Assembly (NCBI GenBank): GCA_964016885.1
Contig: OZ024742.1
Span: 202,120,001-202,184,000 of the forward strand
Origin: Eledone cirrhosa
Lineage: Eukaryota
DNA: 64,000 nucleotides
Direction: 5' to 3'
Made by a program: the position numbers and the translations under genes. The notes below the pieces were generated by a model. It ran no database searches and was not told the DNA's origin. It worked only from the letters and a program-made list of their open reading frames with translations. Positions 24,969 to 64,000 of the stretch are shown here, piece after piece (position 1 is the first letter of the stretch; each line of letters begins with the position of its first letter).

Positions 24969-24989
24969 TCTTATAATAATAATAATAAT

Positions 24990-26950: not shown

Positions 26951-27018
<68 letters not shown>

Positions 27019-27650: not shown

Positions 27651-28126
<476 letters not shown>

Positions 28127-28205
28127 ATACAGATGTAGAACAGTAGAACAATAAAAACAAGAAAAACAGACACGGACAACAAATTCTAATGAATGGTATT
28201 ATTTT

Positions 28206-28600: not shown

Positions 28601-29044
28601 TTTAAAACTCAGATGAAAGGCAAATAAAAGGGATGACTGATATTTCGGGCCTTAGTCCTTCTTTAGAAGAGAGAAAATAGGTTCACTGTAAGAGAGGAGA
28701 GAGAAGTCAGGGAAAGGGGTTAGAAACGTTTAGGAGAGCTGAACAGCAGAAGGTCTTCAGAGAAGAAACCTCCCCAAAGCAAATGTTTCGGCCCTCTATG
28801 TATACATGTTTACAAACATATATACATACAAACACACATACATACAGACAGGCAGACACACATTTCTCTCTCTTTCTCTCCGTCTGTCTCTCCCTTCCAT
28901 ATATTCTCCCACCCTCCCTTGCTACCTCTCTCTCTATATATATACATATATATATATGGTGGGTGAGCATAAACGTTACCATGGAACCGAATCGAAAGAA
29001 ATTCTCGTCCAATAGTAATCACCCATTATGTTAGTTCTGGTTAG

Positions 29045-29045
29045 T

Positions 29046-29087
<42 letters not shown>

Positions 29088-29145
29088 GGACGAGGAGGAG
29101 GAGGAGGAGGATAATGAGGATGATGATGATGACGATGACGATGAT
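29045..29145. repeat. (GAT)n/(GAG)n microsatellite
   Basis: Direct reading. Confidence 0.95.
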
Positions 29146-29479
29146 AAGATAATGTAATTTACTGAGAGTACATCTAAAAACTTGAACATAACAGAACTGA
29201 AATATTGCCGAGTTTTATGGTAGTGAAACACAGTTTTAAAATATATTTTTGGAAAGTTTCCAGTAACTTATTGAATCATAAGAAATAGTCTTAGGACACG
29301 AACTCAAATCAATTATGAATAAAGATGGTTGTTGCAATTGTTGTTTTGGTGATGGTGTTGGTGGTGGTGCTGGCGTTGGTGATCATGGTTTCGATTTAGC
29401 ACCTAGTCAAACATGTTCATATAGGGATATGATCAAAGAGATTTCCAACATGACCTTCCTCCCCTTTTTTGTTAGTGTA

Positions 29480-29825
29480 CCTAAGACCATGTTTTACCCC
29501 GTGCATTTAGAACCACGTTTGAGAGTATAGTTAGGAATATATTTCATTCACAGAGTGTAATTGGATAATGGATTCGGAGTGTGTATTGAAGCATCTTTTT
29601 CAATGTACGTAGGAACCCATTTCATATGTAGCTAGGTGCAGATCTCACGGAATAATTGAGGGCATATTTAACAATGCACCCATGACCACATTTCTGAGGT
29701 CTCAAAGGATCACATTTCATAGTGCACAAAGGAACACATTTCACCTACTGCCTAAGACAATATTTCACAATATGTCAAAGACCACAATTCAGAATGTACT
29801 TAAGACCAAATATCACAGTGTACCT
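29480..29825. repeat. degenerate 24-bp tandem repeat, left flank of satellite
   Basis: e.g. aagacaatatttcacaatatgtca, aagaccacaattcagaatgtactt, aagaccaaatatcacagtgtacct (24 nt each); clear from ~29658, very decayed further left. Confidence 0.8.
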
Positions 29826-32800
29826 ATGACTACATTTCACACAGTCTACATATGACCACACTTAACACAGTCTACCTATGACCACACTTAACACAGTCTA
29901 CCTAAGACCACACTTCACACAGTCTACCTATGACCACACTTCACACAGTCTACCTATAACCACACTTCACACAGTCTACCTATGACCACACTTCACGCAG
30001 TCTACCTATGACCACACTTCACACAGTCTACCTATCACCACACTTCACACAGTCTACCTATGACCGCACTTCACACAGTCTACCTATGACCACACTTCAC
30101 ACAGTGTACCTAAGACCACACATCACACAGTCTACCTATCACCACACTTCACACAGTCTACCTATGACCACACTTAACACAGTCTACCTATGACCACACT
30201 TCACACAGTCTACCTATGACCACACTTCACACAGTCTACCTATGACCACACTTCACACAGTCTACCTATGACCACACTTCACACAGTCTACCTATGACCA
30301 CACTTCACACAGTCTACCTATGACCACACTTCACACAGTCTACCTATGACCACACTTCACACAGTCTACCTATGACCACACTTAACACAGTCTACCTATC
30401 ACCACACTTCACACAGTCTACCTATCACAACACTTCACACAGTCTACCTATCACCACACTTCACACAGTCTACCTATCACCACACTTCACGCAGTCTACC
30501 TATGACCACACTTCACACAGTCTACCTATCACCACACTTCACACAGTCTACCTATGACCGCACTTCACACAGTCTACCTATGACCACACTTCACACAGTG
30601 TACCTAAGACCACACATCACACAGTCTACCTATCACCACACTTCACACAGTCTACCTATCACCACACTTCACACAGTCTACCTTTGACCACACTTCACAC
30701 AGTCTACCTATGACCACACTTCACACAGTGTACCTATGACCACACTTCACACAGTGTACCTATGACCACACTTCACACAGTCTACCTATGACCACACTTC
30801 ACACAGTGTACCTATGACCACACTTCACACAGTGTACCTATGACCACACTTCACACAGTGTACCTAAGACCACACTTCACACAGTGTACCTATGACCACA
30901 CTTCACACAGTGTACCTAAGACCACACTTCACACAGTGTACCTAAGACCACACTTCACACAGTCTACCTATGACCACACTTAACACAGTCTACCTATGAC
31001 CACACTTCACACAGTCTAACTATCACCACACTTCACACAGTCTACCTATGACCACACTTCACACAGTCTACCTATGACCACACTTCACACAGTGTACCTA
31101 TGACTACACTTCACACAGTCTACCTATGACCACACTTCACACAGTGTACCTAAGACCACACTTCACACAGTCTACCTATGACCACACTTAACACAGTATA
31201 CCTATCACCACACTTCACACAGTCTACCTAAGACCACACTTCACACAGTGTTCCTATGACTACACTTCACACAGTATTCCTATGACTACACTTCACACAG
31301 TCTACCTATCACCACACTTCACACAGTCTACCTATGACCACACTTCACACAGTCTACCTATGACCACACTTCACACAGTCTACCTATCACCACACTTCAC
31401 ACAGTCTACCTATCACCACACTTCACACAGTCTACCTTTGACCACACTTCACACAGTCTACCTATGACCACACTTCACACAGTCTACCTATCACCACACT
31501 TCACACAGTCTACCTATGACCACACTTAACACAGTCTACCTATCACCACACTTCACACAGTCTACCTATCACCACACTTCACACAGTCTACCTATGACCA
31601 CACTTCACACAGTCTACCTATGACCACACTTCACACAGTCTACCTATGACCACACTTCACACAGTCTACCTATGACCACACTTCACACAGTCTACCTATC
31701 ACCACACTTCATACAGTCTACCTATGACCACACTTCACACAGTCTACCTATGACCACACTTCACACAGTCTACCTATGACCACACTTAACACAGTCTACC
31801 TTTGACCACACTTCACACAGTCTACCTATGACCATACTTCACACAGTGTACCTATGACCACACTTCACACAGTGTACCTATGACCACACTTCACACAGTC
31901 TACCTATGACCACACTTCACACAGTGTATCTATGACCACACTTCACACAGTCTACCTATGACCACACTTCACACAGTGTTCCTATGACTACACTTCACAC
32001 AGTGTACCTAACACCACACATCACACAGTGTACCTATGACCACACTTCACACAGTGTACCTAAGACCACACTTCACACAGTGTACCTAAGACCACACTTC
32101 ACACAGTGTACCTAAGACCACACTTCACGCAGTCTACCTATGACCACACTTAACACAGTCTACCTATGACCACACTTCACACAGTCTACCTATGACCACA
32201 CTTCACACTGTCTACCTATGACCACACTTCACACAGTGTACCTATGACTACACTTCACACAGTCTACCTATGACCACACTTCACACAGTGTACCTAAGAC
32301 CACACATCACACAGTCTACCTATCACCACACTTCACACAGTCTACCTATGACCACACTTCACACAGTCTACCTATGACCACACTTCACACAGTCTACCTA
32401 TCACCACACTTCACACAGTCTACCTATCACCACACTTCACATAGTCTACCTATCACCACATTTCACACAGTCTACATATGACCACACTTCACACAGTCTA
32501 CCTATCACCACACTTCACACAGCCTACCTATGACCACACTTCACACAGTCTACCTATGACCACACTTCACACAGTCTACCTATGACCACACTTCACACAG
32601 TCTACCTATGACCACACTTTACACAGTCTACCTATGACCACACTTAACACAGTCTACCTATCACCACACTTCACACAGTCTACCTATCACCACACTTCAC
32701 ACAGTCTACCTATCACCACACTTCACACAGTCTACCTATGACCACACTTCACACAGTCTACCTATGACCACACTTCACACAGTCTACCTATGACCACACT

Positions 32801-35800
32801 TCACACAGTCTGCCTATCACCACACTTCACACAGTCTACCTATGACCACACTTAACACAGTCTACCTTTGACCACACTTCACACAGTCTACCTATGACCA
32901 CACTTCACACAGGGTACCCATGACCACACTTCACACAGTGTACCTATGACCACACTTCACACAGTCTACCTATGACCACACTTCACACAGTGTACCTATG
33001 ACCACACTTCACACAGTGTACCTATGACCACACTTAACACAGTCTACCTAAGACCACACTTCACACAGTGTACCTAAGACCACACTTCACACAGTCTACC
33101 TATGACCACACTTAACACAGTCTACCTATGACCACACTTCACACAGTCTAACTATCACCACACTTCACACAGTCTACCTATGACCACACTTCACACAGTC
33201 TACCTATGACCACACTTCACACAGTGTACCTATGACTACACTTCACACAGTCTACCTATGACCACACTTCACACAGTGTACCTAAGACCACACTTCACAC
33301 AGTGTACCTAAGACCACACTTCACACAGTCTACCTATGACCACACTTAACACAGTCTACCTATGACCATACTTCACACAGTCTACCTATGACCACACTTC
33401 ACACTGTCTACCTATGACCACACTTCACACAGTGTACCTATGACTACACTTCACACAGTCTACCTATGACCACACTTCACACAGTGTACCTAAGACCACA
33501 CATCACACAGTCTACCTATCACCACACTTCACACAGTCTACCTATGACCACACTTCACACAGTCTACCTATGACCACACTTCACACAGTCTACCTATCAC
33601 CACACTTCACACAGTCTACCTATCACCACATTTCACACAGTCTACATATGACCACACTTCACACAGTCTACCTATCACCACACTTCACACAGTCTACCTA
33701 TGACCACACTTCACACAGTCTACCTATGACCACACTTCACACAGTCTACCTATGACCACACTTCACACAGTCTACCTATCACCACACTTCACACAGTCTA
33801 CCTATGACCACACTTCACACAGTCTACCTATGACCACACTTCACACAGTCTACTTATGACCACACTTCACACAGTCTGCCTATCACCACACTTCACACAG
33901 TCTACCTATGACCACACTTAACACAGTCTACCTTTGACCACACTTCACACAGTCTACCTATGACCACACTTCACACAGTCTACCTATGACCACACTTCAC
34001 ACAGTCTACCTATCACCACACTTCATACAGTCTACCTATGACCACACTTCACACAGTCTACCTATGACCACACTTCACACAGTCTACCTATGACCACACT
34101 TAACACAGTCTACCTTTGACCACACTTCACACAGTCTACCTATGACCATACTTCACACAGTGTACCTATGACCACACTTCACACAGTGTACCTATGACCA
34201 CACTTCACACAGTCTACCTATGACCACACTTCACACAGTGTATCTATGACCACACTTCACACAGTCTACCTATGACCACACTTCACACAGTGTTCCTATG
34301 ACTACACTTCACACAGTGTACCTAACACCACACATCACACAGTGTACCTATGACCACACTTCACACAGTGTACCTAAGACCACACTTCACACAGTGTACC
34401 TAAGACCACACTTCACACAGTGTACCTAAGACCACACTTCACACAGTCTACCTATGACCACACTTAACACAGTCTACCTATGACCACACTTCACACAGTC
34501 TACCTATGACCACACTTCACACTGTCTACCTATGACCACACTTCACACAGTGTACCTATGACTACACTTCACACAGTCTACCTATGACCACACTTCACAC
34601 AGTGTACCTAAGACCACACATCACACAGTCTACCTATCACCACACTTCACACAGTCTACCTATGACCACACTTCACACAGTCTACCTATGACCACACTTC
34701 ACACAGTCTACCTATCACCACACTTCACACAGTCTACCTATCACCACACTTCACATAGTCTACCTATCACCACATTTCACACAGTCTACATATGACCACA
34801 CTTCACACAGTCTACCTATCACCACACTTCACACAGCCTACCTATGACCACACTTCACACAGTCTACCTATGACCACACTTCACACAGTCTACCTATGAC
34901 CACACTTCACACAGTCTACCTATGACCACACTTCACACAGTCTACCTATGACCACACTTAACACAGTCTACCTATCACCACACTTCACACAGTCTACCTA
35001 TCACCACACTTCACACAGTCTACCTATCACCACACTTCACACAGTCTACCTATGACCACACTTCACACAGTCTACCTATGACCACACTTCACACAGTCTA
35101 CCTATGACCACACTTCACACAGTCTGCCTATCACCACACTTCACACAGTCTACCTATGACCACACTTAACACAGTCTACCTTTGACCACACTTCACACAG
35201 TCTACCTATGACCACACTTCACACAGGGTACCCATGACCACACTTCACACAGTGTACCTATGACCACACTTCACACAGTCTACCTATGACCACACTTCAC
35301 ACAGTGTACCTATGACCACACTTCACACAGTGTACCTATGACCACACTTAACACAGTCTACCTAAGACCACACTTCACACAGTGTACCTAAGACCACACT
35401 TCACACAGTCTACCTATGACCACACTTAACACAGTCTACCTATGACCACACTTCACACAGTCTAACTATCACCACACTTCACACAGTCTACCTATGACCA
35501 CACTTCACACAGTCTACCTATGACCACACTTCACACAGTGTACCTATGACTACACTTCACACAGTCTACCTATGACCACACTTCACACAGTGTACCTAAG
35601 ACCACACTTCACACAGTGTACCTAAGACCACACTTCACACAGTCTACCTATGACCACACTTAACACAGTCTACCTATGACCATACTTCACACAGTCTACC
35701 TATGACCACACTTCACACTGTCTACCTATGACCACACTTCACACAGTGTACCTATGACTACACTTCACACAGTCTACCTATGACCACACTTCACACAGTG

Positions 35801-38800
35801 TACCTAAGACCACACATCACACAGTCTACCTATCACCACACTTCACACAGTCTACCTATGACCACACTTCACACAGTCTACCTATGACCACACTTCACAC
35901 AGTCTACCTATCACCACACTTCACACAGTCTACCTATCACCACACTTCACATAGTCTACCTATCACCACATTTCACACAGTCTACATATGACCACACTTC
36001 ACACAGTCTACCTATCACCACACTTCACACAGTCTACCTATGACCACACTTCACACAGTCTACCTATGACCACACTTCACACAGTCTACCTATGACCACA
36101 CTTCACACAGTCTACCTATCACCACACTTCACACAGTCTACCTATGACCACACTTCACACAGTCTACCTATGACCACACTTCACACAGTCTACCTATGAC
36201 CACACTTCACACAGTCTGCCTATCACCACACTTCACACAGTCTACCTATGACCACACTTAACACAGTCTACCTTTGACCACACTTCACACAGTCTACCTA
36301 TGACCACACTTCACACAGGGTACCCATGACCACACTTCACACAGTGTACCTATGACCACACTTCACACAGTCTACCTATGACCACACTTCACACAGTGTA
36401 CCTATGACCACACTTCACACAGTGTACCTATGACCACACTTAACACAGTCTACCTAAGACCACACTTCACACAGTGTACCTAAGACCACACTTCACACAG
36501 TCTACCTATGACCACACTTAACACAGTCTACCTATGACCACACTTAACACAGTCTACCTATGACCACACTTCACACAGTCTAGCTATGACCACACTTCAC
36601 ACAGTCTACCTATGACCACACTTCACACAGTGTACCTATGACTACACTTCACACAGTCTACCTATGACCACACTTCACACAGTGTACCTAAGACCACACT
36701 TCACACAGTCTACCTATGACCACACTTCACACAGTCTAACTATCACCACACTTCACACAGTCTACCTATGACCACACTTCACACAGTCTAACTATCACCA
36801 CACTTCACACAGTCTACCTATGACCACACTTCACACAGTCTACATATGACCACACTTAACACAGTCTACCTATGACCACACTTAACACAGTCTACCTTTG
36901 ACCACACTTCACACAGTCAATCTATGACCACACTTCACACAGTCTACCTATGACCACACTTCACACAGTGTACCTATGACCACACTTCACACAGTCTACC
37001 TATCACCACACTTCACACAGTCTACCTATGACCACACTTCACACAGTCTACCTATCACCACACTTCAGACAGTCTACCTATGACCACACTTCACACAGTC
37101 TACCTATGACCACACTTCACACAGTCTACCTATGACCACACTTCACACAGTCTACCTATGACCACACTTCACACAGTCTACCTATGACCACACTTCACAC
37201 AGTCTACCTATGACCACACTTAACACAGTCTACCTATCACCACACTTCACACAGTCTACCTATCACCACACTTCACACAGTCTACCTATCACCACACTTC
37301 ACACAGTCTACCTATGACCACACTTCACGCATTCTACCTATGACCACACTTCACACAGTCTACCTATCACCACACTTCACACAGTCTACCTATGACCGCA
37401 CTTCACACAGTCTACCTATGACCACACTTCACACAGTGTACCTAAGACCACACATCACACAGTCTACCTATCACCACACTTCACACAGTCTACCTATGAC
37501 CACACTTCACACAGTCTACCTATCACCACACTTCACACAGTGTACCTATGACCACACTTCACACAGTCTACCTATGACCACACTTCACACAGTGTACCTA
37601 TGACCACACTTCACACAGTGTACCTATGACCACACTTCACACAGTGTACCTAAGACCACACTTCACACAGTCTACCTATGACCACACTTAACACAGTATA
37701 CCTATCACCACACTTCACACAGTCTACCTAAGACCACACTTCACACAGTGTTCCTATGACTACACTTCACACAGTATTCCTATGACTACACTTCACACAG
37801 TCTACCTATCACCACACTTCACACAGTCTACCTATGACCACACTTCACACAGTCTACCTATGACCACACTTCACACAGTCTACCTATCACCACACTTCAC
37901 ACAGTCTACCTATCACCACACTTCACACAGTCTACCTTTGACCACACTTCACACAGTCTACCTATGACCACACTTCACACAGTCTACCTATCACCACACT
38001 TCACACAGTCTACCTATGACCACACTTAACACAGTCTACCTATCACCACACTTCACACAGTCTACCTATGACCACACTTCACACAGTGTACCTATGACCA
38101 CACTTCACACAGTCTACCTATGACCACACTTCACACAGTCTACCTATGACCACACTTCACACAGTGTACCTATGACCACACTTCACACAGTGTACCTATG
38201 ACCACACTTAACACAGTCTACCTAAGACCACACTTCACACAGTGTACCTAAGACCACACTTCACACAGTCTACCTATGACCACACTTAACACAGTCTACC
38301 TATGACCACACTTCACACGGTCTAACTATCACCACACTTCACACAGTCTACCTATGACCACACTTCACACAGTCTACCTATGACCACACTTCACACAGTG
38401 TACCTATGACTACACTTCACACAGTCTACCTATGACCACACTTCACACAGTGTACCTAAGACCACACTTCACACAGTCTACCTATGACCACACTTCACAC
38501 AGTCTAACTATCACCACACTTCACACAGTCTACCTATGACCACACTTCACACAGTCTAACTATCACCACACTTCACACAGTCTACCTATGACCACACTTC
38601 ACACAGTCTACATATGACCACACTTAACACAGTCTACCTATGACCACACTTAACACAGTCTACCTTTGACCACACTTCACACAGTCAATCTATGACCACA
38701 CTTCACACAGTCTACCTATGACCACACTTCACACAGTGTACCTATGACCACACTTCACACAGTCTACCTATCACCACACTTCACACAGTCTACCTATGAC

Positions 38801-41800
38801 CACACTTCACACAGTCTACCTATCACCACACTTCACACAGTCTACCTATGACCACACTTCACACAGTCTACCTATGACCACACTTCACACAGTCTACCTA
38901 TGACCACACTTCACACAGTCTACCTATGACCACACTTCACGCAGTCTACCTATGACCACACTTCACACAGTCTACCTATCACCACACTTCACACAGTCTA
39001 CCTATGACCGCACTTCACACAGTCTACCTATGACCACACTTCACACAGTGTACCTAAGACCACACATCACACAGTCTACCTATCACCACACTTCACACAG
39101 TCTACCTATGACCACACTTAACACAGTCTACCTATGACCACACTTCACACAGTCTACCTATGACCACACTTCACACAGTCTACCTATGACCACACTTCAC
39201 ACAGTCTACCTATGACCACACTTCACACAGTCTACCTATGACCACACTTCACACAGTCTACCTATGACCACACTTCACACAGTCTACCTATGACCACACT
39301 TAACACAGTCTACCTATCACCACACTTCACACAGTCTACCTATCACCACACTTCACACAATCTACCTATCACCACACTTCACACAGTCTACCTATGACCA
39401 CACTTCACGCAGTCTACCTATGACCACACTTCACACAGTCTACCTATCACCACACTTCACACAGTCTACCTATGACCGCACTTCACACAGTCTACCTATG
39501 ACCACACTTCACACAGTGTACCTAAGACCACACATCACACAGTCTACCTATCACCACACTTCACACAGTCTACCTATGACCACACTTCACACAGTCTACC
39601 TATCACCACACTTCACACAGTGTACCTATGACCACACTTCACACAGTCTACCTATGACCACACTTCACACAGTGTACCTATGACCACACTTCACACAGTG
39701 TACCTATGACCACACTTCACACAGTGTACCTAAGACCACACTTCTCACAGTGTACCTATGACCACACTTCACACAGTGTACCTAAGACCACACTTCACAC
39801 AGTGTACCTAAGACCACACTTCACACAGTCTACCTATGACCACACTTAACACAGTCTACCTATGACCACACTTCACACAGTCTAACTATCACCACACTTC
39901 ACACAGTCAACCTATGACCACACTTCACACAGTCTACCTATGACCACACTTCACACAGTGTACCTATGACTACACTTCACACAGTCTACCTATGACCACA
40001 CTTCACACAGTGTACCTAAGACCACACTTCACACAGTCTACCTATGACCACACTTAACACAGTATACCTATCACCACACTTCACACAGTCTACCTAAGAC
40101 CACACTTCACACAGTGTTCCTATGACTACACTTCACACAGTATTCCTATGACTACACTTCACACAGTCTACCTATCACCACACTTCACACAGTCTACCTA
40201 TGACCACACTTCACACAGTCTACCTATGACCACACTTCACACAGTCTACCTATCACCACACTTCACACAGTCTACCTATCACCACACTTCACACAGTCTA
40301 CCTTTGACCACACTTCACACGGTCTACCTATGACCACACTTCACACAGTCTACCTATCACCACACTTCACACAGTCTACCTATGACCACACTTAACACAG
40401 TCTACCTATCACCACACTTCACACAGTCTACCTATCACCACACTTCACACAGTCTACCTATGACCACACTTCACACAGTCTACCTATGACCACACTTCAC
40501 ACAGTCTACCTATGACCACACTTCACACAGTCTACCTATGACCACACTTCACACAGTCTACCTATCACCACACTTCACACAGTCTACCTATGACCACACT
40601 TCACACAGTCTACCTATGACCACACTTAACACAGTCTACCTATCACCACACTTCACACAGTCTACCTATCACCACACTTCACACAGTCTACCTATGACCA
40701 CACTTCACACAGTCTACCTATGACCACACTTCACACAGTCTACCTATCACCACACTTCACACAGTCTACCTATGACCACACTTCACACAGTCTACCTATC
40801 ACCACACTTCACACAGTCTACCTATGATCACACTTAACACAGTCTACCTTTGACCACACTTCACACAGTCTACCTATGACCATACTTCACACAGTGTACC
40901 TATGACCACACTTCACACAGTGTACCTATGACCACACTTCACACAGTCTACCTATGACCACACTTCACACAGTGTACCTATGACCACACTTCACACAGTC
41001 TACCTATGACCACACTTCACACAGTGTTCCTATGACTACACTTCACACAGTGTACCTAAGACCACACATCACACAGTGTACCTATGACCACACTTCACAC
41101 AGTGTACCTAAGACCACACTTCACACAGTGTACCTAAGACCACACTTCACACAGTCTACCTATGACCACACTTCACACAGTCTACCTATGACCACACTTC
41201 ACACAGTCTACCTATGACCACACTTCACACAGTCTACCTATGACCACACTTCACACAGTCTACCTATGACCACACTTAACACAGTCTACCTATCACCACA
41301 CTTCACACAGTCTACCTATCACCACACTTCACACAGTCTACCTATCACCACACTTCACACAGTCTACCTATCACCACACTTCACACAGTCTACCTATGAC
41401 CACACTTCACACAGTCTACCTATCACCACACTTCACACAGTCTACCTATGACCACACTTCACACAGTCTACCTATGACCACACTTCACACAGTCTACCTA
41501 TGACCACACTTCACACAGTCTACCTATGACCACACTTCACACAGTCTACATATGACCACACTTAACACAGTCTACCTATCACCACACTTCACACAGTCTA
41601 CCTATCACCACACTTCACACAGTCTACCTATCACCACACTTCACACAGTCTACCTATGACCACACTTCACACAGTCTACCTATCACCCCACTTCACACAG
41701 TCTACCTATGACCACACTTCACACAGTCTGCCTATCACCACACTTCACACAGTCTACCTATGACCACACTTAACACAGTCTACCTTTGACCACACTTCAC

Positions 41801-44800
41801 ACAGTCTACCTATGACCACACTTCACACAGTGTACCCATGACCACACTTCACACAGTGTACCTATGACCACACTTCACACAGTCTACCTATGACCACACT
41901 TCACACAGTGTACCTATGACCACACTTCACACAGTGTACCTATGACCACACTTAACACAGTCTACCTAAGACCACACTTCACACAGTGTACCTAAGACCA
42001 CACTTCACACAGTCTACCTATGACCACACTTAACACAGTCTACCTATGACCACACTTCACACAGTCTAACTATCACCACACTTCACACAGTCTACCTATG
42101 ACCACACTTCACACAGTCTACCTATGACCACACTTCACACAGTGTACCTATGACTACACTTCACACAGTCTACCTATGACCACACTTCACACAGTGTACC
42201 TAAGACCACACTTCACACAGTCTACCTATGACCACACTTCACACAGTCTAACTATCACCACACTTCACACAGTCTACCTATGACCACACTTCACACAGTC
42301 TACCTATGACCACACTTCACACAGTCTACCTATCACCACACTTCACACAGTCTACCTATGACCACACTTCACACAGTCTACCTATGACCACACTTCACAC
42401 AGTCTACCTATGACCACACTTCACACAGTCTACCTATGACCACACTTCACACAGTCTACCTATCACCACACTTCACACAGTCTACCTATCACCACACTTC
42501 ACACAGTCTACCTATCACCACACTTCACACAGTCTACCTATGACCACACTTCACACAGTCTACCTATCACCACACTTCACACAGTCTACCTATCACCACA
42601 CTTCACACAGTCTACCTATCACCACACTTCACACAGTCTACCTATGACCACACTTAACACAGTCTACCTTTGACCACACTTCACACAGTCAATCTATGAC
42701 CACACTTCACACAGTCTACCTATGACCACACTTCACACAGTGTACCTATGACCACACTTCACACAGTCTACCTATCACCACACTTCACACAGTCTACCTA
42801 TGACCACACTTCACACAGTCTACCTATCACCACACTTCACACAGTCTACCTATGACCACACTTCACACAGTCTACCTATGACCACACTTCACACAGTCTA
42901 CCTATGACCACACTTCACACAGTCTACCTATGACCACACTTCACACAGTCTACCTATTACCACACTTAACACAGTCTACCTATCACCACACTTCACACAG
43001 TCTACCTATCACCACACTTCACACAGTCTACCTATCACCACACTTCACACAGTCTACCTATCACCACACTTCACACAGTCTACCTATGACCACACTTCAC
43101 ACAGTCTACCTATGACCACACTTCACACAGTCTACCTATGACCACACTTAACACAGTCTACCTATGACCACACTTCACACAGTCTACCTATGACCACACT
43201 TCACACAGTCTACCTATCACCACACTTCACACAGTCTACCTATGACCACACTTAACACAGTCTACCTTTGACCACACTTCACACAGTCTACCTATGACCA
43301 CACTTCACACAGTGTACCCATGACCACACTTCACACAGTGTACCTATGACCACACTTCACACAGTCTACCTATGACCACACTTCACACAGTGTACCTATG
43401 ACCACACTTCACACAGTGTACCTATGACCATACTTCACACAGTGTACCTAAGACCACACTTCACACAGTGTACCTAAGACCACACTTCACACAGTCTACC
43501 TATGACCACACTTAACACAGTATACCTATCACCACAATTCACACAGTCTACCTAAGACCACATTTCACACAGTGTTCCTATGACTACACTTCACACAGTG
43601 TACCTAAGACCACACTTCACACAGTCTACCTATCACCACACTTAACACAGTCTACCTATGACCACACTTCACACAGTCTAACTATCACCACACTTCACAC
43701 AGTCTACCTATGACCACACTTCACACAGTCTACCTATGACCACACTTCACAGAGTGTACCTATGACTACACTTCACACAGTCTACCTATGACCACACTTC
43801 ACACAGTGTACCTAAGACCACACTTCACACAGTCTACCTATGACCACACTTAACACAGTATACCTATCACCACAATTCACACAGTCTACCTAAGACCACA
43901 TTTCACACAGTGTTCCTATGACTACACTTCACACAGTGTTCCTATGACTACACTTCACACAGTCTACCTATCACCACACTTCACACAGTCTACCTATGAC
44001 CACACTTCACACAGTCTACCTATGACCACACTTCACACAGTCTACCTATCACCACACTTCACACAGTCTACCTATGACCACACTTCACACAGTGTTCCTA
44101 TGACTACACTTCACACAATGTACCTAAGACCACACATCACACAGTGTACCTATGACCACACTTCACACAGTGTACCTAAGACCACACTTCACACGGTGTA
44201 CCTAAGACCACACTTCACACAGTCTACCTATGACCACACTTAACACAGTCTACCTATGACCACACTTCACACAGTCTACCTATGACCACACTTCACACAG
44301 TCTACCTATGACCACACTTCACACAGTCTACCTATGACTACACTTCACACAGTCTACCTATGACCACACTTAACACAGTCTACCTTTGACCACACTTAAC
44401 ACAGTCTACCTATGACCACACTTCACACAGTGTACCTATGACCACACTTCACACAGTCTACCTAAGACCACACTTCACACAGTGTTCCTATGACTACACT
44501 TCACACAGTGTACCTAAGACCACACATCACACAGTGTACCTATGACCACACTTCACACAGTGTACCTAAGACCACACTTCACATAGTGTACCTAAGACCA
44601 CACTTCACACAGTCTACCTATGACCACACTTAACACAGTCTACCTATGACCACACTTCACACAGTCTACCTATGACCACACTTCACACAGTCTACCTATG
44701 ACCACACTTCACACAGTCTACCTATGACCACACTTAACACAGTGTACCTATCACCACACTTCACACAGTCTACCTATCACCACACTTCACACAGTCTACC

Positions 44801-50800: not shown

Positions 50801-53800
50801 TGTACCTATGACCACACTTCACACAGTGTACCTATGACCACACTTCACACAGTCTACCTATGACCACACTTCACACAGTCTACCTATCACCACACTTCAC
50901 ACAGTTTACCTATGACCACACTTCACACAGTGTACCTATGACCACACTTCACACAGTCGACCTATGACCACACTTCACACAGTGTACCTATGACCACACT
51001 TCACACAGTCTACCTAAGACCACACTTCACACAGTGTTCCTATGACTACACTTCACACAGTGTACCTAAGACCACACATCAAACAGTGTACCTATGACCA
51101 CACTTCACACAGTGTACCTAAGACCACACTTCACATAGTGTACCTAAGACCACACTTCACACAGTCTACCTATGACCACACTTAACACAGTCTACCTATG
51201 ACCACACTTCACACAGTCTACCTATGACCACACTTCACACAGTCTACCTATGACCACACTTCACACAGTGTACCTATGACTACACTTCACACAGTCTACC
51301 TATGACCACACTTCACACAGTGTACCTAAGACCACACTTCACACAGTCTACCTATGACCACACTTAACACAGTCTACCTATGACCACACTTCACACCGTC
51401 TACCTAAGACCACACTTCACACAGTGTTCCTATGACTACACTTCACACAGTGTTCCTATGACTACACTTCACACAGTCTACCTATCGCCACACTTCACAC
51501 AGTCTACCTATCACCACACTTCACACAGTCTACCTATGACCACACTTCACACAGTCTACCTATGACCACACTTCACACAGTCTACCTATGACCACACTTC
51601 ACACAGTCTACCTATGACCACACTTAACACAGTCTACCTTTGACCACACTTCAGACAGTCTACCTATGACCACACTTCACACAGTCTACCTATGACCACA
51701 CTTCACACAGTCTACCTATGACCACACTTCACACAGTCTACCTATCACCACACTTCACACAGTCTACCTATGACCACACTTAACACAGTCTACCTATCAC
51801 CACACTTCACACAGTCTAACTATCACCACACTTCACACAGTCTACCTATGACCACACTTCACACAGTCTACCTATGACCACACTTCACACAGTGTACCTA
51901 TGACCACACTTCACACAGTCTACCTATCACCACACTTCACACAGTCTACCTATGACCACACTTCACACAGTCTACCTATCACCACACTTCACACAGTCTA
52001 CCTATGACCACACTTAACACAGTCTACCTTTGACCACACTTAACACAGTCTACCTATGACCACACTTCACACAGTGTACCTATGACCACACTTCACACAG
52101 TCTACCTATGACCACACTTCACACAGTCTACCTATCACCACACTTCACACAGTCTACCTATGACCACACTTAACACAGTCTACCTTTGACCACACTTCAG
52201 ACAGTCTACCTATGACCACACTTCACACAGTGTACCTATGACCACACTTCACACAGTCTACCTATCACCACACTTCACACAGTCTACCTATCACCACACT
52301 TCACACAGTCTACCTATGACCACACTTAACACAGTCTACCTTTGACCACACTTCACACAGTCTACCTATGACCACACTTCACACAGTGTACCTATGACCA
52401 CACTTCACACAGTGTACCTATGACCACACTTCACACAGTCTACCTATGACCACACTTCACACAGTGTACCTATGACCACACTTCACACAGTGTACCTATG
52501 ACCACACTTCACACAGTGTACCTAAGACCACACTTCACACAGTGTACCTAAGACCACACTTCACACAGTCTACCTATGACCACACTTAACACAGTCTACC
52601 TATCACCACACTTCACACAGTCTAACTATCACCACACTTCACACAGTCTACCTATGACCACACTTCACACAGTCTACCTATGACCACACTTCACACAGTG
52701 TACCTATGACCACACTTCACACAGTCTACCTATCACCACACTTCACACAGTCTACCTATGACCACACTTCACACAGTCTACCTATCACCACACTTCACAC
52801 AGTCTACCTATGACCACACTTAACACAGTCTACCTTTGACCACACTTAACACAGTCTACCTATGACCACACTTCACACAGTGTACCTATGACCACACTTC
52901 ACACAGTGTACCTATGACCACACTTCACACAGTCTACCTATGACCACACTTCACACAGTCTACCTATCACCACACTTCACACAGTTTACCTATGACCACA
53001 CTTCACACAGTGTACCTATGACCACACTTCACACAGTCGACCTATGACCACACTTCACACAGTGTACCTATGACCACACTTCACACAGTCTACCTAAGAC
53101 CACACTTCACACAGTGTTCCTATGACTACACTTCACACAGTGTACCTAAGACCACACATCAAACAGTGTACCTATGACCACACTTCACACAGTGTACCTA
53201 AGACCACACTTCACATAGTGTACCTAAGACCACACTTCACACAGTCTACCTATGACCACACTTAACACAGTCTACCTATGACCACACTTCACACAGTCTA
53301 CCTATGACCACACTTCACACAGTCTACCTATGACCACACTTCACACAGTGTACCTATGACTACACTTCACACAGTCTACCTATGACCACACTTCACACAG
53401 TGTACCTAAGACCACACTTCACACAGTCTACCTATGACCACACTTAACACAGTCTACCTATGACCACACTTCACACCGTCTACCTAAGACCACACTTCAC
53501 ACAGTGTTCCTATGACTACACTTCACACAGTGTTCCTATGACTACACTTCACACAGTCTACCTATCGCCACACTTCACACAGTCTACCTATCACCACACT
53601 TCACACAGTCTACCTATGACCACACTTCACACAGTCTACCTATGACCACACTTCACACAGTCTACCTATGACCACACTTCACACAGTCTACCTATGACCA
53701 CACTTAACACAGTCTACCTTTGACCACACTTCAGACAGTCTACCTATGACCACACTTCACACAGTCTACCTATGACCACACTTCACACAGTCTACCTATG

Positions 53801-56800
53801 ACCACACTTCACACAGTCTACCTATCACCACACTTCACACAGTCTACCTATGACCACACTTAACACAGTCTACCTATCACCACACTTCACACAGTCTAAC
53901 TATCACCACACTTCACACAGTCTACCTATGACCACACTTCACACAGTCTACCTATGACCACACTTCACACAGTGTACCTATGACCACACTTCACACAGTC
54001 TACCTATCACCACACTTCACACAGTCTACCTATGACCACACTTCACACAGTCTACCTATCACCACACTTCACACAGTCTACCTATGACCACACTTAACAC
54101 AGTCTACCTTTGACCACACTTAACACAGTCTACCTATGACCACACTTCACACAGTGTACCTATGACCACACTTCACACAGTGTACCTATGACCACACTTC
54201 ACACAGTCTACCTATGACCACACTTCACACAGTCTACCTATCACCACACTTCACACAGTTTACCTATGACCACACTTCACACAGTGTACCTATGACCACA
54301 CTTCACACAGTCGACCTATGACCACACTTCACACAGTGTACCTATGACCACACTTCACACAGTCTACCTAAGACCACACTTCACACAGTGTTCCTATGAC
54401 TACACTTCACACAGTGTACCTAAGACCACACATCAAACAGTGTACCTATGACCACACTTCACACAGTGTACCTAAGACCACACTTCACATAGTGTACCTA
54501 AGACCACACTTCACACAGTCTACCTATGACCACACTTAACACAGTCTACCTATGACCACACTTCACACAGTCTACCTATGACCACACTTCACACAGTCTA
54601 CCTATGACCACACTTCACACAGTGTACCTATGACTACACTTCACACAGTCTACCTATGACCACACTTCACACAGTGTACCTAAGACCACACTTCACACAG
54701 TCTACCTATGACCACACTTAACACAGTCTACCTATGACCACACTTCACACCGTCTACCTAAGACCACACTTCACACAGTGTTCCTATGACTACACTTCAC
54801 ACAGTGTTCCTATGACTACACTTCACACAGTCTACCTATCGCCACACTTCACACAGTCTACCTATCACCACACTTCACACAGTCTACCTATGACCACACT
54901 TCACACAGTCTACCTATGACCACACTTCACACAGTCTACCTATGACCACACTTCACACAGTCTACCTATGACCACACTTAACACAGTCTACCTTTGACCA
55001 CACTTCAGACAGTCTACCTATGACCACACTTCACACAGTCTACCTATGACCACACTTCACACAGTCTACCTATCACCACACTTAACACAGTCTACCTATG
55101 ACCACACTTCACACAGTGTACCTATGACCACACTTCACACAGTCTACCTATCACCACACTTCACACAGTCTACCTATCACCACACTTCACACAGTCTACC
55201 TATGACCACACTTCACACAGTCTACCTATCACCACACTTCACACAGTCTACCTATGACCACACTTAACACAGTCTACCTATGACCACACTTAACACAGTC
55301 TACCTATGACCACACTTCACACAGTCTAACTATCACCACACTTCACACAGTCTACCTATGACCACACTTCACACAGTCTACCTATGACCACACTTCACAC
55401 AGTGTACCTATGACCACACTTCACACAGTCTACCTATCACCACACTTCACACAGTCTACCTATGACCACACTTCACACAGTCTACCTATCACCACACTTC
55501 ACACAGTCTACCTATGACCACACTTAACACAGTCTACCTTTGACCACACTTAACACAGTCTACCTATGACCACACTTCACACAGTGTACCTATGACCACA
55601 CTTCACACAGTGTACCTATGACCACACTTCACACAGTCTACCTATGACCACACTTCACACAGTCTACCTATCACCACACTTCACACAGTTTACCTATGAC
55701 CACACTTCACACAGTGTACCTATGACCACACTTCACACAGTCGACCTATGACCACACTTCACACAGTGTACCTATGACCACACTTCACACAGTCTACCTA
55801 AGACCACACTTCACACAGTGTTCCTATGACTACACTTCACACAGTGTACCTAAGACCACACATCACACAGTGTACCTATGACCACACTTCACACAGTGTA
55901 CCTAAGACCACACTTCACATAGTGTACCTAAGACCACACTTCACACAGTCTACCTATGACCACACTTAACACAGTCTACCTATGACCACACTTCACACAG
56001 TCTACCTATGACCACACTTCACACAGTCTACCTATGACCACACTTCACACAGTCTACCTATGACCACACTTAACACAGTGTACCTATCACCACACTTCAC
56101 ACAGTCTACCTATCACCACACTTCACACAGTCTACCTATCACCACACTTCACACAGTCTACCTATGACCACACTTCACACAGTCTACCTATGACCACACT
56201 TCACACAGTCTACCTATCACCACACTTCACACAGTCTACCTATGACCACACTTCACACAGTCTACCTATCACCACACTTAACACAGTCTACCTATGACCA
56301 CACTTAACACAGTCTACCTTTGACCACACTTCACACAGTCTACCTATGACCACACTTCACACAGTGTACCTATGACCACACTTCACACCGTCTACCTAAG
56401 ACCACACTTCACACAGTGTTCCTATGACTACACTTCACACAGTGTTCCTATGACTACACTTCACACAGTCTACCTATTACCACACTTCACACAGTCTACC
56501 TATCACCACACTTCACACAGTCTACCTATGACCACACTTCACACGGTCTACCTATCACCACACTTCACACAGTCTACCTATCACCACACTTCACACAGTC
56601 TACCTATCACCACACTTCACACAGTCTACCTATCATCACACTTCACACAGTCTACCTATCACCACACTTCACACAGTTTACCTATGACCACACTTCACAC
56701 AGTGTACCTATGACCACACTTCACACAGTCTACCTATGACCACACTTCACACAGTGTACCTATGACCACACTTCACACAGTCTACCTAAGACCACACTTC

Positions 56801-59800
56801 ACACAGTGTTCCTATGACTACACTTCACACAGTGTTCCTATGACTACACTTCACACAGTCTACCTATCACCACACTTCACACAGTCTACCTATCACCACA
56901 CTTCAGACAGTCTACCTATGACCACACTTCACACAGTCTACCTATGACCACACTTCACACAGTCTACCTATGACCACACTTAACACAGTCTACCTATCAC
57001 CACACTTCACACAGTCTACCTATCACCACACTTCACACAGTCTACCTATCACCACACTTCACACAGTCTACCTATGACCACACTTCACACAGTCTACCTA
57101 TGACCACACTTCACACAGTCTACCTATGACCACACTTCACACAGTCTACCTATGACCACACTTCACACAGTCTACCTATGACCACACTTAACACAGTGTA
57201 CCTATCACCACACTTCACACAGTCTACCTATCACCACACTTCACACAGTCTACCTATCACCACACTTCACACAGTCTACCTATGACCACACTTCACACAG
57301 TCTACCTATGACCACACTTCACACAGTCTACCTATCACCACACTTCACACAGTCTACCTATGACCACACTTCACACAGTCTACCTATCACCACACTTCAC
57401 ACAGTCTACCTATGACCACACTTAACACAGTCTACCTTTGACCACACTTCACACAGTCTACCTATGACCACACTTCACACAGTGTACCTATGACCACACT
57501 TCACACAGTGTACCTATGACCACACTTCACACAGTCTACCTATGACCACACTTCACACAGTGTACCTATGACCACACTTCACACAGTGTACCTATGACCA
57601 CACTTCACACAGTGTACCTAAGACCACACTTCACACAGTGTACCTAAGACCACACTTCACACAGTCTACCTATGACCACACTTAACACAGTCTACCTATG
57701 ACCACACTTCACACAGTCTAACTATCACCACACTTCACACAGTCTACCTATGACCACACTTCACACAGTCTACCTATGACCACACTTCACACAGTGTACC
57801 TATGACTACACTTCACACAGTCTACCTATGACCACACTTCACACAGTGTACCTAAGACCACACTTCACACAGTCTACCTATGACCACACTTAACACAGTA
57901 TACCTATCACCACACTTCACACAGTCTACCTAAGACCACACTTCACACAGTGTTCCTATGACTACACTTCACACAGTGTTCCTATGACTACACTTCACAC
58001 AGTCTACCTATCACCACACTTCACACAGTCTACCTATGACCACACTTCACACAGTCTACCTATGACCACACTTCACACAGTCTACCTATCACCACACTTC
58101 ACACAGTCTACCTATGACCACACATAACACGGTCTACCTATCACCACACTTCACACAGTCTACCTATCACCACACTTCACACAGTCTACCTTTGACCACA
58201 CTTCACACAGTCTACCTATGACCACACTTCACACAGTCTACCTATCACCACACTTCACACAGTCTACCTATGACCACACTTAATACAGTCTACCTATCAC
58301 CACACTTCACACAGTCTACCTATCGCCACACTTCACACAGTCTACCTATCACCACACTTCACACAGTCTACCTATGACCACACTTCACACAGTCTACCTA
58401 TGACCACACTTCACACAGTCTACCTATGACCACACTTCACACAGTCTACCTATGACCACACTTCACACAGTCTACCTATGACCACACTTCACACAGTCTA
58501 CCTATGACCACACTTCACACAGTCTACCTATCACCACACTTAACACAGTCTACCTATCACCACACTTCACACAGTCTACCTATCACCACACTTCAAACAG
58601 TCTACCTATGACCACACTTCACACAGTCTACCTATCACCACACTTCACACAGTCTACCTATGACCACACTTCACACAGTCTACCTATCACCACACTTCAC
58701 ACAGTCTACCTATGACCACACTTAACACAGTCTACCTTTGACCACACTTCAGACAGTCTACCTATGACCACACTTCACACAGTGTACCTATGACCACACT
58801 TCACACAGTGTACCTATGACCACACTTCACACAGTCTACCTATGACCACACTTCACACAGTGTACCTATGACCACACTTCACACAGTCTACCTATGACCA
58901 CACTTCACACAGTGTTCCTATGACTACACTTCACACAGTGTACCTAAGACCACACATCACACAGTGTACCTATGACCACACTTCACACAGTGTACCTAAG
59001 ACCACACTTCACACAGTGTACCTAAGACCACACTTTACAGAGTCTACCTATGACCACACTTAACACAGTCTACCTATGACCACACTTCCCACAGTCTACC
59101 TATGACCACACTTCACACAGTCTACCTATGACCACACTTCACACAGTGTACCTATGACTACACTTCACACAGTCTACCTATGACCACACTTCACACAGTG
59201 TACCTAAGACCACACTTCACACAGTCTACCTATGACCACACTTAACACAGTCTACCTATGACCACACTTCACACCGTCTACCTAAGACCACACTTCACAC
59301 AGTGTTCCTATGACTACACCTCACACAGTGTTCCTATGACTACACTTCACACAGTCTACCTATCACCACACTTCACACAGTCTACCTATGACCACACTTC
59401 ACACAGTCTACCTATGACCACACTTCACACAGTCTACCTATGACCACACTTCACACAGTGTACCTATGACCACACTTCACACAGTCTACCTATGACCACA
59501 CTTCACACAGTCTACCTATGACCACACTTCACACAGTCTACCTATCACCACACTTCACACAGTCTACCTATGACCACACTTCACACGGTCTACCTATCAC
59601 CACACTTCACACAGTCTACCTATGACCACACTTAACACAGTCTACCTTTGACCACACTTAACACAGTCTACCTATGACCACACTTCACACAGTGTACCTA
59701 TGACCACACTTCACACAGTGTACCTATGACCACACTTCACACAGTCTACCTATGACCACACTTCACACAGTCTACCTATCACCACACTTCACACAGTCTA

Positions 59801-62800
59801 CCTATCACCACACTTCACACAGTCTACCTATCACCACACTTCACACAGTCTACCTATGACCACACTTCACACAGTCTACCTATCACCACACTTCACACAG
59901 TGTACCTATGACCACAATTCACACAGTCTACCTATCACCACACTTCACACAGTCTACCTATGACCACACTTAACACAGTCTACCTTTGACCACACTTCAC
60001 ACAGTCTACCTATGACCACACTTCACACAGTTTACCTATGACCACACTTCACACAGTGTACCTATGACCACACTTCACACAGTCTACCTATGACCACACT
60101 TCACACAGTGTACCTATGACCACACTTCACACAGTCTACCTAAGACCACACTTCACACAGTGTTCCTATGCCTACACTTCACACAGTGTACCTAAGACCA
60201 CACATCACACAGTGTACCTATGACCACACTTCACACAGTGTACCTAAGACCACACTTCACATAGTGTACCTAAGACCACACTTCACACAGTCTACCTATG
60301 ACCACACTTAACACAGTCTACCTATGACCACACTTCACACAGTCTAGCTATGACCACACTTCACACAGTCTACCTATGACCACACTTCACACAGTGTACC
60401 TATGACTACACTTCACACAGTCTACCTATGACCACACTTCACACAGTGTACCTAAGACCACACTTCACACAGTGTACCTATGACCACACTTAACACAGTC
60501 TACCTATGACCACACTTCACACCGTCTACCTAAGACCACACTTCACACAGTGTTCCTATGACTACACTTCACACAGTGTTCCTATGACTACACTTCACAC
60601 AGTCTACCTATTACCACACTTCACACAGTCTACCTATCACCACACTTCACACAGTCTACCTATGACCACACTTCACACGGTCTACCTATCACCACACTTC
60701 ACACAGTCTACCTATCACCACACTTCACACAGTCTACCTATCATCACACTTCACACAGTCTACCTATCACCACACTTCACACAGTTTACCTATGACCACA
60801 CTTCACACAGTGTACCTATGACCACACTTCACACAGTCTACCTATGACCACACTTCACACAGTGTACCTATGACCACACTTCACACAGTCTACCTAAGAC
60901 CACACTTCACACAGTGTTCCTATGACTACACTTCACACAGTGTTCCTATGACTACACTTCACACAGTCTACCTATCACCACACTTCACACAGTCTACCTA
61001 TCACCACACTTCACACAGTCTACCTATGACCACACTTCACACAGTCTACCTATGACCACACTTCACACAGTCTACCTATGACCACACTTCACACAGTCTA
61101 CCTATCACCACACTTCACACAGTGTACCTATCACCACACTTCACACAGTGTACCTATGACCACACTTCACACAGTCTACCTATGACCACACATCACACAG
61201 TGTACCTATGACCACACTTCACACAGTCTACCTAAGACCACACTTCACACAGTGTTCCTATGACTACACTTCACACAGTGTTCCTATGACTACACTTCAC
61301 ACAGTCTACCTATCACCACACTTCACACAGTCTACCTATCACCGCACTTCACGCAGTCTACCTATGACCACACTTCACACAGTCTACCTATGACCACACT
61401 TCACACAGTCTACCTATGACTACACTTCACACAGTCTACCTATCACCACACTTCACACAGTCTACCTATCACCACACTTCACACAGTCTACCTATCACCA
61501 CACTTCACACAGTCTACCTATCATCACACTTCACACAGTCTACCTATGACCACACTTCACACAGTTTACCTATGACCACACTTCACACAGTGTACCTATG
61601 ACCACACTTCACACAGTCTACCTATGACCACACTTCACACAGTGTACCTATGACCACACTTCACACAGTCTACCTAAGACCACACTTCACACAGTGTTCC
61701 TATGACTACACTTCACACAGTGTACCTAAGACCACACATCACACAGTGTACCTATGACCACACTTCACACAGCGTACCTAAGACCACACTTCACATAGTG
61801 TACCTAAGACCACACTTCACACAGTCTACCTATGACCACACTTAACACAGTCTACCTATGACCACACTTCACACAGTCTAGCTATGACCACACTTCACAC
61901 AGTCTACCTATGACCACACTTCACACAGTGTACCTATGACTACACTTCACACAGTCTACCTATGACCACACTTCACACAGTGTACCTAAGACCACACTTC
62001 ACACAGTCTACCTATGACCACACTTAACACAGTCTACCTATGACCACACTTCACACCGTCTACCTAAGACCACACTTCACACAGTGTTCCTATGACTACA
62101 CTTCACACAGTGTTGCTATGACTACACTTCACACAGTCTACCTATTACCACACTTCACACAGTCTACCTATCACCACACTTCACACAGTCTACCTATGAC
62201 CACACTTCACACGGTCTACCTATCACCACACTTCACACAGTCTACCTATCACCACACTTCACACAGTCTACCTATCATCACACTTCACACAGTCTACCTA
62301 TCACCACACTTCACACAGTTTACCTATGACCACACTTCACACAGTGTACCTATGACCACACTTCACACAGTCTACCTATGACCACACTTCACACAGTGTA
62401 CCTATGACCACACTTCACACAGTCTACCTAAGACCACACTTCACACAGTGTTCCTATGACTACACTTCACACAGTGTTCCTATGACTACACTTCACACAG
62501 TCTACCTATCACCACACTTCACACAGTCTACCTATCACCACACTTCACACAGTCTACCTATGACCACACTTCACACAGTCTACCTATGACCACACTTCAC
62601 ACAGTCTACCTATGACCACACTTCACACAGTCTACCTATCACCACACTTCACACAGTGTACCTATCACCACACTTCACACAGTGTACCTATGACCACACT
62701 TCACACAGTCTACCTATGACCACACTTCACACAGTGTACCTATGACCACACTTCACACAGTCTACCTAAGACCACACTTCACACAGTGTTCCTATGACTA

Positions 62801-63926
62801 CACTTTACACAGTGTTCCTATGACTACACTTCACACAGTCTACCTATCACCACACTTCACACAGTCTACCTATCACCACACTTCACGCAGTCTACCTATG
62901 ACCACACTTCACACAGTCTGCCTATGACCACACTTCACACAGTCTACCTATGACTACACTTCATACAGTCTACCTATCACCACACTTCACACAGTCTACC
63001 TATCACCACACTTCACACAGTCTACCTATCACCACACTTCACACAGTCTATCTATCATCACACTTCACACAGTCTACCTATGACCACACTTCACACAGTT
63101 TACCTATGACCACACTTCACACAGTGTACCTATGACCACACTTCACACAGTCTACCTATGACCACACTTCACACAGTGTACCTATGACCACACTTCACAC
63201 AGTCTACCTAAGACCACACTTCACACAGTGTTCCTATGACTACACTTCACACAGTGTACCTAAGACCACACATCACACAGTGTACCTATGACCACACTTC
63301 ACACAGTGTACCCAAGACCACACTTCACATAGTGTACCTAAGACCACACTTTACACAGTCTACCTATGACCACACTTAACACAGTCTACCTATGACCACA
63401 CTTCACACAGTCTAGCTATGACCACACTTCACACAGTCTACCTATGACCACACTTCACACAGTGTACCTATGACTACACTTCACACAGTCTACCTATGAC
63501 CACACTTCACACAGTGTACCTAAGACCACACTTCACACAGTCTACCTATGACCACACTTAACACAGTCTACCTATGACCACACTTCACACCGTCTACCTA
63601 AGACCACACTTCACACAGTGTTCCTATGACTACACTTCACACAGTGTTCCTATGACTACACTTCACACAGTCTACCTATCACCACACTTCACACAGTCTA
63701 CCTATCACCACACTTCACACAGTCTACCTATGACCACACTTCACACAGTCTACCTATCACCACACTTCACACAGTCTACCTATCACCACACTTCACACAG
63801 TCTACCTATCACCACACTTCACACAGTCTACCTATCATCACACTTCACACAGTCTACCTATCACCACACTTCACACAGTCTACCTATCACCACACTTCAC
63901 ACAGTGTACCTATGACCACACTTCAC
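29826..63926. repeat. 26-bp satellite DNA array, ~34.1 kb, ~1,310 monomers
   Basis: Consensus CTATGACCACACTTCACACAGTCTAC, head-to-tail, single orientation, no interrupting insertion seen. Confidence 0.99.
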
Positions 63927-64000
63927 GATGTATTACAACTATATTTCCTAGTGTACATAGTACCACATTTTACAACGTACTTAAGACTACATTCAACACT
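63912..64000. repeat. degenerate ~24-bp tandem repeat, right flank of satellite
   Basis: acaactatatttcctagtgtacat, agtaccacattttacaacgtactt, aagactacattcaacact... Confidence 0.75.

What the first reader, a model, noticed from the sequence alone, without database searches (positions are those of the whole stretch)
29480..64000. Satellite birth preserved in place: a 26-mer array expanded inside an older 24-mer repeat
Seen: both edges of the homogeneous 26-bp array grade into diverged monomers 24 bp long (approximately AAGACCACATTTCACAGTGTACCT), i.e. the 26-mer minus one CA of TTCACACAG. Edge-like states (TAAG, GTGTAC, GACTAC, CATTTC) recur as minority variants inside the array. Inference: one monomer of an old short 24-bp repeat gained CA by slippage and then amplified ~1,300-fold, pushing the ancestral monomers apart. 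A complete array with both ancestral flanks is an unusually clean record of satellite origin.
Basis: partly seen in the sequence, partly recalled or inferred. Interest (0 to 1): 0.72.

Follow-up and report, generated by a model that had tools for sequence, protein, structure and literature searches.

The report
Young satellite nested in older repeat
A 34,000-base block of 1,311 copies of a 26-base unit, found nowhere else in this genome, sits in exact register inside a decayed older repeat within a predicted huge intron of an acetylcholine-receptor-like gene; it likely grew on the spot from a few old units that already had the 26-base form, a clean but ordinary example of how satellites expand.

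Summary
Observation largely confirmed, interpretation partly. The array is 1,311 units, all exactly 26 bp (29826-63911), and private to this locus (1,301 of 1,301 genome-wide motif hits). Both sides carry a decayed repeat of the same family (15 units left, 42 right, about 25% diverged, mode 24 bp), joined in register. Corrections: the boundary is a step, not a grade; 12 of 57 old units already fit the 26-bp form, so the +2 was probably not a fresh slip just before growth; left-edge haplotypes recur inside the array, so more than one unit fed it; and it grew by block duplication and exchange, not one burst. No orthologue or unexpanded allele could be obtained, so direction (24 older than 26) stays inferred. 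The whole window lies in a predicted 192.8-kb intron of a nicotinic-receptor alpha-like gene, 69% filled by this array and a private 98.8-kb 21-mer array. Such arrays are common here (3 of 40 sampled stretches), and the scan found private intronic satellites before on other DNA of this genome. Closest known: layered expansion of alpha satellite, and the CACNA1C 30-mer VNTR.

The parts
29461..29825 (+). Old decayed repeat, left part: 15 units, 11 exactly 24 bp, two 26-type; 28% diverged from the flank consensus
29802..29851 (+). Left junction: last 24-bp unit (2 differences from the 24-mer motif) and first 26-bp unit, whose 5' half keeps the old state T10 and whose 3' half has the array state C21; a 21-base word across this junction recurs 21 times inside the array
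29826..63911 (+). Young array: 1,311 units of exactly 26 bp, 90 unit types, mean 1.03 differences from consensus, 56% of units inside exact block duplicates of 15 or more units (longest 74 units, 1,924 bp)
63912..63934 (+). Right junction unit: 5' part identical to the array consensus (0 of 13 differences; the only old unit with C10), 3' part decayed
63912..64000 (+). Old decayed repeat, right part; it continues about 930 bases past the window end (L009 412-1431 in all): 42 units, 27 24-type, 10 26-type (9 of them in one block, L009 614-1034), 5 undecided; 24% diverged. An unrelated private 98.8-kb array of a 21-bp unit starts 2.5 kb past the window end
1..64000 (-). Whole window lies inside one predicted 192,816-bp phase-0 GT-AG intron (G000:C3:202,094,063-202,286,878) of a nicotinic acetylcholine receptor alpha-like gene; the rest of the window is microsatellites and retroelement fragments

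Best explanation
This is a locus-private 26-bp minisatellite of 34 kb lying in register inside a much more diverged 24/26-bp repeat in a predicted giant intron, and it likely grew in place by layered expansion as neutral filler. Shown: array size and purity, privacy, in-register junctions, mixed 24/26 old layer, recombinant haplotypes, exact block duplicates, surrounding exons. Inferred steps: (1) an ancient burst made at least 57 copies of a 24-bp unit that then decayed like neutral DNA, some copies carrying two extra bases at one slippage-prone spot; (2) between old units 15 and 16 a 26-bp segment made of the 3' half of one unit and the 5' half of the next was duplicated, giving two near-identical neighbours; (3) unequal exchange or replication-based copying of blocks of tens of units enlarged the array, while gene conversion carried left-edge sequence into it; (4) the flanks, about 25% diverged, were too different to take part and were pushed 34 kb apart.
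For: Privacy: exact unit 400 in genome = 400 in window; motif with up to 2 mismatches 1,301 = 1,301; both flanks single-copy by DNA search. Junctions: 5' half of 63912 identical to array, 3' half of 29802 one difference; the smallest clade holding all 16 array types adds only 3 of 55 old units, two of them the junction units (support 29). Old layer star-like: neighbours 0.416 vs others 0.409, variance no larger than binomial, C/G columns 0.38/0.33 vs A/T 0.17. Several founders or conversion: G21 precedes 80 of 86 T6 units and 102 of 142 A2 units, the left-junction word recurs 21 times, the first unit's 20-base word 4 times; 15 of 36 pairs of common sites show all four gametes. Block growth: seven exact duplicates of 27-74 units against at most 6 units in 5 shuffles. 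Ordinary setting: 3 of 40 spaced 10-kb stretches of the same contig hold arrays of 5 kb or more.
Against: No orthologue or unexpanded allele was seen, so the order of events has no outgroup. The array is closer to the old consensus (13%) than the average old unit (25%), which a random decayed founder would give only about 1 time in 8 (P 0.12 for 3 or fewer differences). Old 26-type units share no derived substitutions (p 0.87), so their +2 may have arisen several times and the founder's own +2 could still be recent. Four-gamete pairs can also come from recurrent mutation (48 of 78 possible alleles are seen). The tree has almost no support. The intron rests on exon homology and splice signals, not on a transcript.
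Confidence: 0.65

Rival explanations
1. Never-dead array: the centre of a long-lived mixed 24/26 array has been homogenised continuously and the flanks are edge relics, so this records maintenance and drift, not a birth; the 26-bp form may be as old as the 24-bp form.
For: Array types lie 13% from the old consensus, 25 units only one difference away; old states persist as polymorphisms; 12 of 57 old units are 26-type; eight variants at 2% or more against eight singletons, far from a pure-birth spectrum; homogeneous centres with diverged ends are a known pattern.
Against: No intermediate layer: step from 4% to 25% and no right-side gradient; old units are star-like; the apparent youth of old 26-type units (0.185 vs 0.261) is explained by alignment freedom (simulation p 0.17).
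Confidence: 0.2
2. One reading: one 24-bp unit gained CA by a fresh slip and that single unit amplified in one burst.
For: All 1,311 units are 26 bp and C10 is nearly fixed (1,300 of 1,311); the old units next to both junctions are 23-24 bp; old 26-type units are not a clade.
Against: 9 of 10 two-base insertions in old units sit at the same spot; linked old-state haplotypes match the edge; spectrum and block duplicates do not fit one burst.
Confidence: 0.09
3. The unit came from a transposon or from another array and was seeded here.
For: The 24-mer motif matches the core of a 140-bp dispersed repeat (16 of 19; 18 of 5,000 shuffles as good) and three Penelope-like copies at 21 of 24; earlier scan notes describe several transposon-born satellites in this genome (unchecked).
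Against: Shuffled units score as well against 87 kb of real DNA (median 23, observed 23); no remnant of either element beside the old repeat; the Penelope family majority matches only 19 of 24 and the anchored flank test gives p 0.13; no second array of the 26-mer.
Confidence: 0.04
4. Assembly artefact inflating a short repeat.
For: Array length was not measured independently; the best holder runs may be the assembly's own sample.
Against: 90 unit types in structured order, no N in the window; summed contig depth 20,166 on the last array units against 4.03 on the flank (not a copy number); a 56-base array contig in a second sample.
Confidence: 0.02

Closest known systems
Layered expansion of human alpha satellite, intra-array seeding (10.1101/2021.07.12.452052; passages read)
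   Same: A new variant expands inside an older array and displaces older, more diverged repeats symmetrically.
   Different: Unit 24-26 bp, 34 kb, one locus, two layers only, step boundary, intronic; no evidence of centromere function.
TRACT, the 30-bp VNTR in CACNA1C intron 3 (10.1101/311795, passages; PMC13131567, abstract and section 12)
   Same: Single-locus array of about 30-bp units, 3-30 kb, in an intron of a neuronal ion-channel gene, a few common one-base variants.
   Different: TRACT grew from a single ancestral copy shown in apes and has measured enhancer activity; here the seed lay in a decayed repeat, and neither an outgroup nor a function is shown.
Homogenised centres with diverged ends, e.g. 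Drosophila Responder (PMC5411766, passages; review PMC5615363, passages)
   Same: High-copy variants in the middle, unique variants at both ends, higher-order blocks.
   Different: Here the ends differ in modal unit length and the transition takes one unit.
Satellite-filled giant introns of Drosophila kl-3 and kl-5 (PMC6508621, abstract and outline)
   Same: Most of an intron is tandem repeat.
   Different: 193 kb rather than megabases, minisatellites rather than simple repeats, transcription through it not shown.

Membership tests
Locus-specific minisatellite/VNTR expansion (TRACT-like) | Head-to-tail units of 10-100 bp in a multi-kilobase array | tested here: met
   1,311 x 26 bp
Locus-specific minisatellite/VNTR expansion (TRACT-like) | Unit confined to one locus | tested here: met
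   400 of 400 and 1,301 of 1,301
Locus-specific minisatellite/VNTR expansion (TRACT-like) | Length varies between alleles; outgroup unexpanded | tested here: inconclusive
   No relative covers the flanks; RAD runs do not sample the array
Layered expansion | Older, more diverged repeats of the same family on both sides | tested here: met
Layered expansion | Progressive age gradient of several layers | tested here: not met
   Two layers, step boundary, rho 0.48 (p 0.07) and 0.07 (p 0.67); so it works like layered expansion but is not filed with the centromeric cases
Layered expansion | Seed from within the array, not from elsewhere | tested here: met
   No donor; in-register half-unit junctions
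Centromeric satellite | Family shared across chromosomes or megabase size | tested here: not met
   34 kb, single locus
Centromeric satellite | CENP-A binding | not testable with these tools
   No chromatin data
Transposon-derived satellite | Array embedded in register in a recognisable element | tested here: not met
Protein-coding repeat | Open frame kept across units | tested here: not met
   25 of 57 old units are not 24 bp; 80-aa left ORF has no Pfam hit; the most variable column class (0.35 vs 0.21, 0.23) is third-codon only in frames with a stop in each consensus unit
Recursive-splice (ratchet) sites (features recalled) | Pyrimidine tract, then YAG followed at once by a strong donor | tested here: not met
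   1,154 YAG-GT on the gene's strand, but 0 pyrimidine tracts and 0 consensus donors

The most novel reading that the evidence does not exclude
The two private arrays that fill 69% of this receptor intron are not inert: their length and the 1,154 AG-GT joints and UG-rich units on the pre-mRNA strand would tune transcription time or splicing of a neuronal nicotinic receptor gene that has a pair of candidate mutually exclusive exons, making a satellite whose ancestral state is still readable in place a lineage-specific regulator of a neural gene.
Probability: 0.05. Interest if true: 0.65.

Novelty: new member of a known kind. Interest (0 to 1): 0.33.

Why it matters
Arrays with abrupt edges, like the neighbouring 21-mer, have lost their seeds. 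Here both halves of the parent repeat survive, which predicts exactly what an unexpanded orthologue should look like (about 58 decayed units, 1.4 kb, mixed 24/26). One PCR or genome look-up in a related species would test layered expansion at a locus with no sign of a centromere, where kinetochore selection is an unlikely driver. The principle itself is known.

Tried and rejected
Orthologue search: one run search listed 10 runs; 3 high-share holders are one sample that may be the assembly's source; no RNA holder listed. Runs X4-X6 (other organism labels) covered almost only dispersed repeats, X4 also the array end at trace depth in about the same ratio as those repeats: not used as evidence. 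RAD runs X8-X10 gave no array reads; X8's four flank reads stop near AATT sites and the array holds only 4 such sites, so the blank is uninformative. The X1 flank contig enters only 30 array-type bases, short of the tool's bridging rule. Paralogues of the old repeat: 9 hits at up to 3 mismatches, 1 in this flank and 8 isolated; all 9 lie on three contigs, so that scan may be incomplete; also 3 isolated hits. Origin from a 140-bp dispersed repeat or a Penelope-like element: not significant. Old 26-type units as a younger layer or clade: not supported. Coding role: rejected. Rfam: 30 sub-threshold miRNA-like hits, on (TA)n runs and one long palindrome by their coordinates, none counted. Strong DNA hairpins: none (-0.4 and -1.6 kcal/mol for four units). 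Absolute dating: no usable rate found. Literature searches for octopus satellite arrays listed no paper on this; the library is partial and only listings were seen.

Full report
Setting. The window is G000:C3:202,120,001-202,184,000 of a 3.0-Gb, 1,796-contig genome. 'Octopus-like' comes from earlier scan notes and my recall of the repeat types; no call of mine named the organism. Positions above 64000 continue the window numbering into fetched neighbours.

The array. TRF reports one 26-bp array of 1,312 copies with no indels. A fixed-phase parse gives 1,311 units from 29826 to 63911, every one 26 bp, in 90 types, with a mean of 1.03 differences from consensus and diversity 0.067 per site. It is private: the exact unit occurs 400 times in the genome and 400 times in the window; a motif with up to two mismatches 1,301 and 1,301 times.

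The old layer. Both sides are 24-periodic beyond chance (0 of 2,000 shuffles each; adjacent controls not significant). A profile parse gives 15 units on the left and 42 on the right, the right part running about 930 bases past the window end (fragments under 17 bases were dropped: 1 left, 2 right). The 55 near-complete units are 24.9% from their consensus (0.30 corrected, against 0.04 for the array), with no structure among them and with C and G columns decaying twice as fast as A and T columns, as expected of dead, neutral DNA. Both flanks are single-copy by DNA search, a search that skips common words.

The old repeat is not purely 24 bp: 32 of 57 units are 24 bp, 9 are 26 bp, and by fit 12 are 26-type, 9 of them in one block at 64114-64534. 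Nine of ten two-base insertions lie at the spot where the array has its extra two bases. These units are about as decayed as the rest once alignment freedom is allowed for (p 0.17) and share no derived changes (p 0.87). So the +2 state is old or recurrent, and need not be the trigger. The boundary is a step.

Junctions and founders. The first array unit has the old T10 in its 5' half and the array's C21 in its 3' half; the unit at 63912 has an array-identical 5' half and a decayed 3' half. That is what an in-register amplification of a segment spanning two neighbouring units leaves behind (inference). Old-consensus states persist inside: G21 in 339 units, A2 in 142, T10 in 7. G21 precedes 80 of 86 T6 units, the combination found across the left junction, and that 21-base word recurs 21 times inside. 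Either several adjacent units founded the array or edge sequence was converted into it. In a tree of 16 array types and 55 old units the array clade takes in both junction units and one old 26-type unit, with support of only 29.

Growth. Fifty-six percent of units lie in exact duplicates of 15 or more units, the longest 74 units (1,924 bp), against at most 6 in shuffled order; shared words split the array into a left and a right domain. Eight of 48 variants exceed 2% and only eight are singletons; a pure-birth process would give about 4% and 50% of variants in these classes, though allele saturation blurs this. Fifteen of 36 pairs of common sites show four gametes. Repeated block copying with exchange fits; one burst does not.

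Origin of the old unit. Resemblances to a 140-bp dispersed repeat and to a Penelope-like element did not survive controls. The seed is unidentified.

Gene context. A 380-aa frame about 166 kb left of the array matches neuronal nicotinic receptor alpha-4 at 1.5e-98. The missing N-terminal exons lie on the same strand at C3:202,045,5xx or 202,034,4xx, 202,094,0xx and 202,286,9xx, in order, with GT-AG signals and matching phases, covering Pfam PF02931 positions 2-40, 56-92 and 92-216 (the 15-aa exon was too short to scan). The intron between the last two is 192,816 bp and holds the whole window; this array and a private 21-bp array of 98.8 kb (251 of 251 dimer hits local) make up 69% of it. This is a prediction from homology; no transcript was seen. 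On the gene's strand 1,154 units carry YAG-GT, without pyrimidine tract or consensus donor.

How ordinary. Three of 40 spaced 10-kb stretches of the same contig hold arrays of 5 kb or more, and the eight earlier notes listed all describe satellite-filled introns in this genome (unchecked). The surviving parent layer on both sides is the distinctive part; the two other arrays whose edges I looked at (the 21-mer at both ends, L182 at one end) end abruptly, too few to call it rare.

Independent data. One sample covers the right flank without a difference and shows very high summed depth on array units, but may be the assembly's source. A second sample has one 56-base array contig. No relative covered the flanks, so the decisive orthologue test is open.

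Comparison. The pattern matches intra-array layered expansion described for alpha satellite (passages) and homogenised centres with diverged ends (passages). In size and setting it resembles the CACNA1C 30-mer VNTR (abstract, passages, one section) and, loosely, satellite-filled introns of fly fertility genes (abstract and outline). No supplements were read.

Verdict. Real, clean, mechanistically readable, and a new member of a known kind. Interest 0.33.

Noticed in passing
G000:C3:202,045,5xx (L122 5489-5599, -) and 202,034,4xx (L121 4319-4429, -): Two look-alike 110-base exons of the nicotinic receptor gene, both matching PF02931 positions 56-92 with the same splice phases; using both would shift the frame, so they are candidate mutually exclusive exons. 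Insect alpha-6 has such sets at exons 3 and 8 (PMC5111602, passages); an insect alpha-4 pair at this exon is my recall only.
   Followed up: partly
G000:C3:202,186,476-202,285,274 (beyond the window; L009-L035): Private 98.8-kb array of a 21-bp unit (about 4,790 copies), 2.5 kb from the 26-mer array and ending 1.6 kb from an exon; abrupt edges.
   Followed up: partly
L009 about 2200-2460: A long near-perfect inverted repeat (two arms of about 130 bases, read by eye; source of the top Rfam miRNA-like hits) between the two arrays.
   Followed up: no
L041-L070; window 13529-13632, 17145-17281: A dispersed repeat with a unit of about 140 bp that also forms short tandem runs; 1,339 first-look candidates.
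   Followed up: partly
L075, L077, L078, L080-L109: A young Penelope-like family (copies 93-95% alike to the query, 2,405 first-look candidates); the Penelope and GIY-YIG labels are from recalled motifs.
   Followed up: partly
L182 1-7037: A 62-bp array ending about 140 bases before what looks like a coding exon (ubiquitin-ligase-like by my recall, untested).
   Followed up: no
window 6128-9292, 21247-22398, 25572-26204: Retroelement fragments: reverse transcriptase (two), zf-RVT and a weak GIY-YIG match.
   Followed up: no
L131, L141-L142, L160, L172: Highly homogeneous 310-bp tandem arrays (99-100% matches) at several places on the contig; earlier notes describe a 311-bp ribozyme repeat in this genome, identity not checked.
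   Followed up: no
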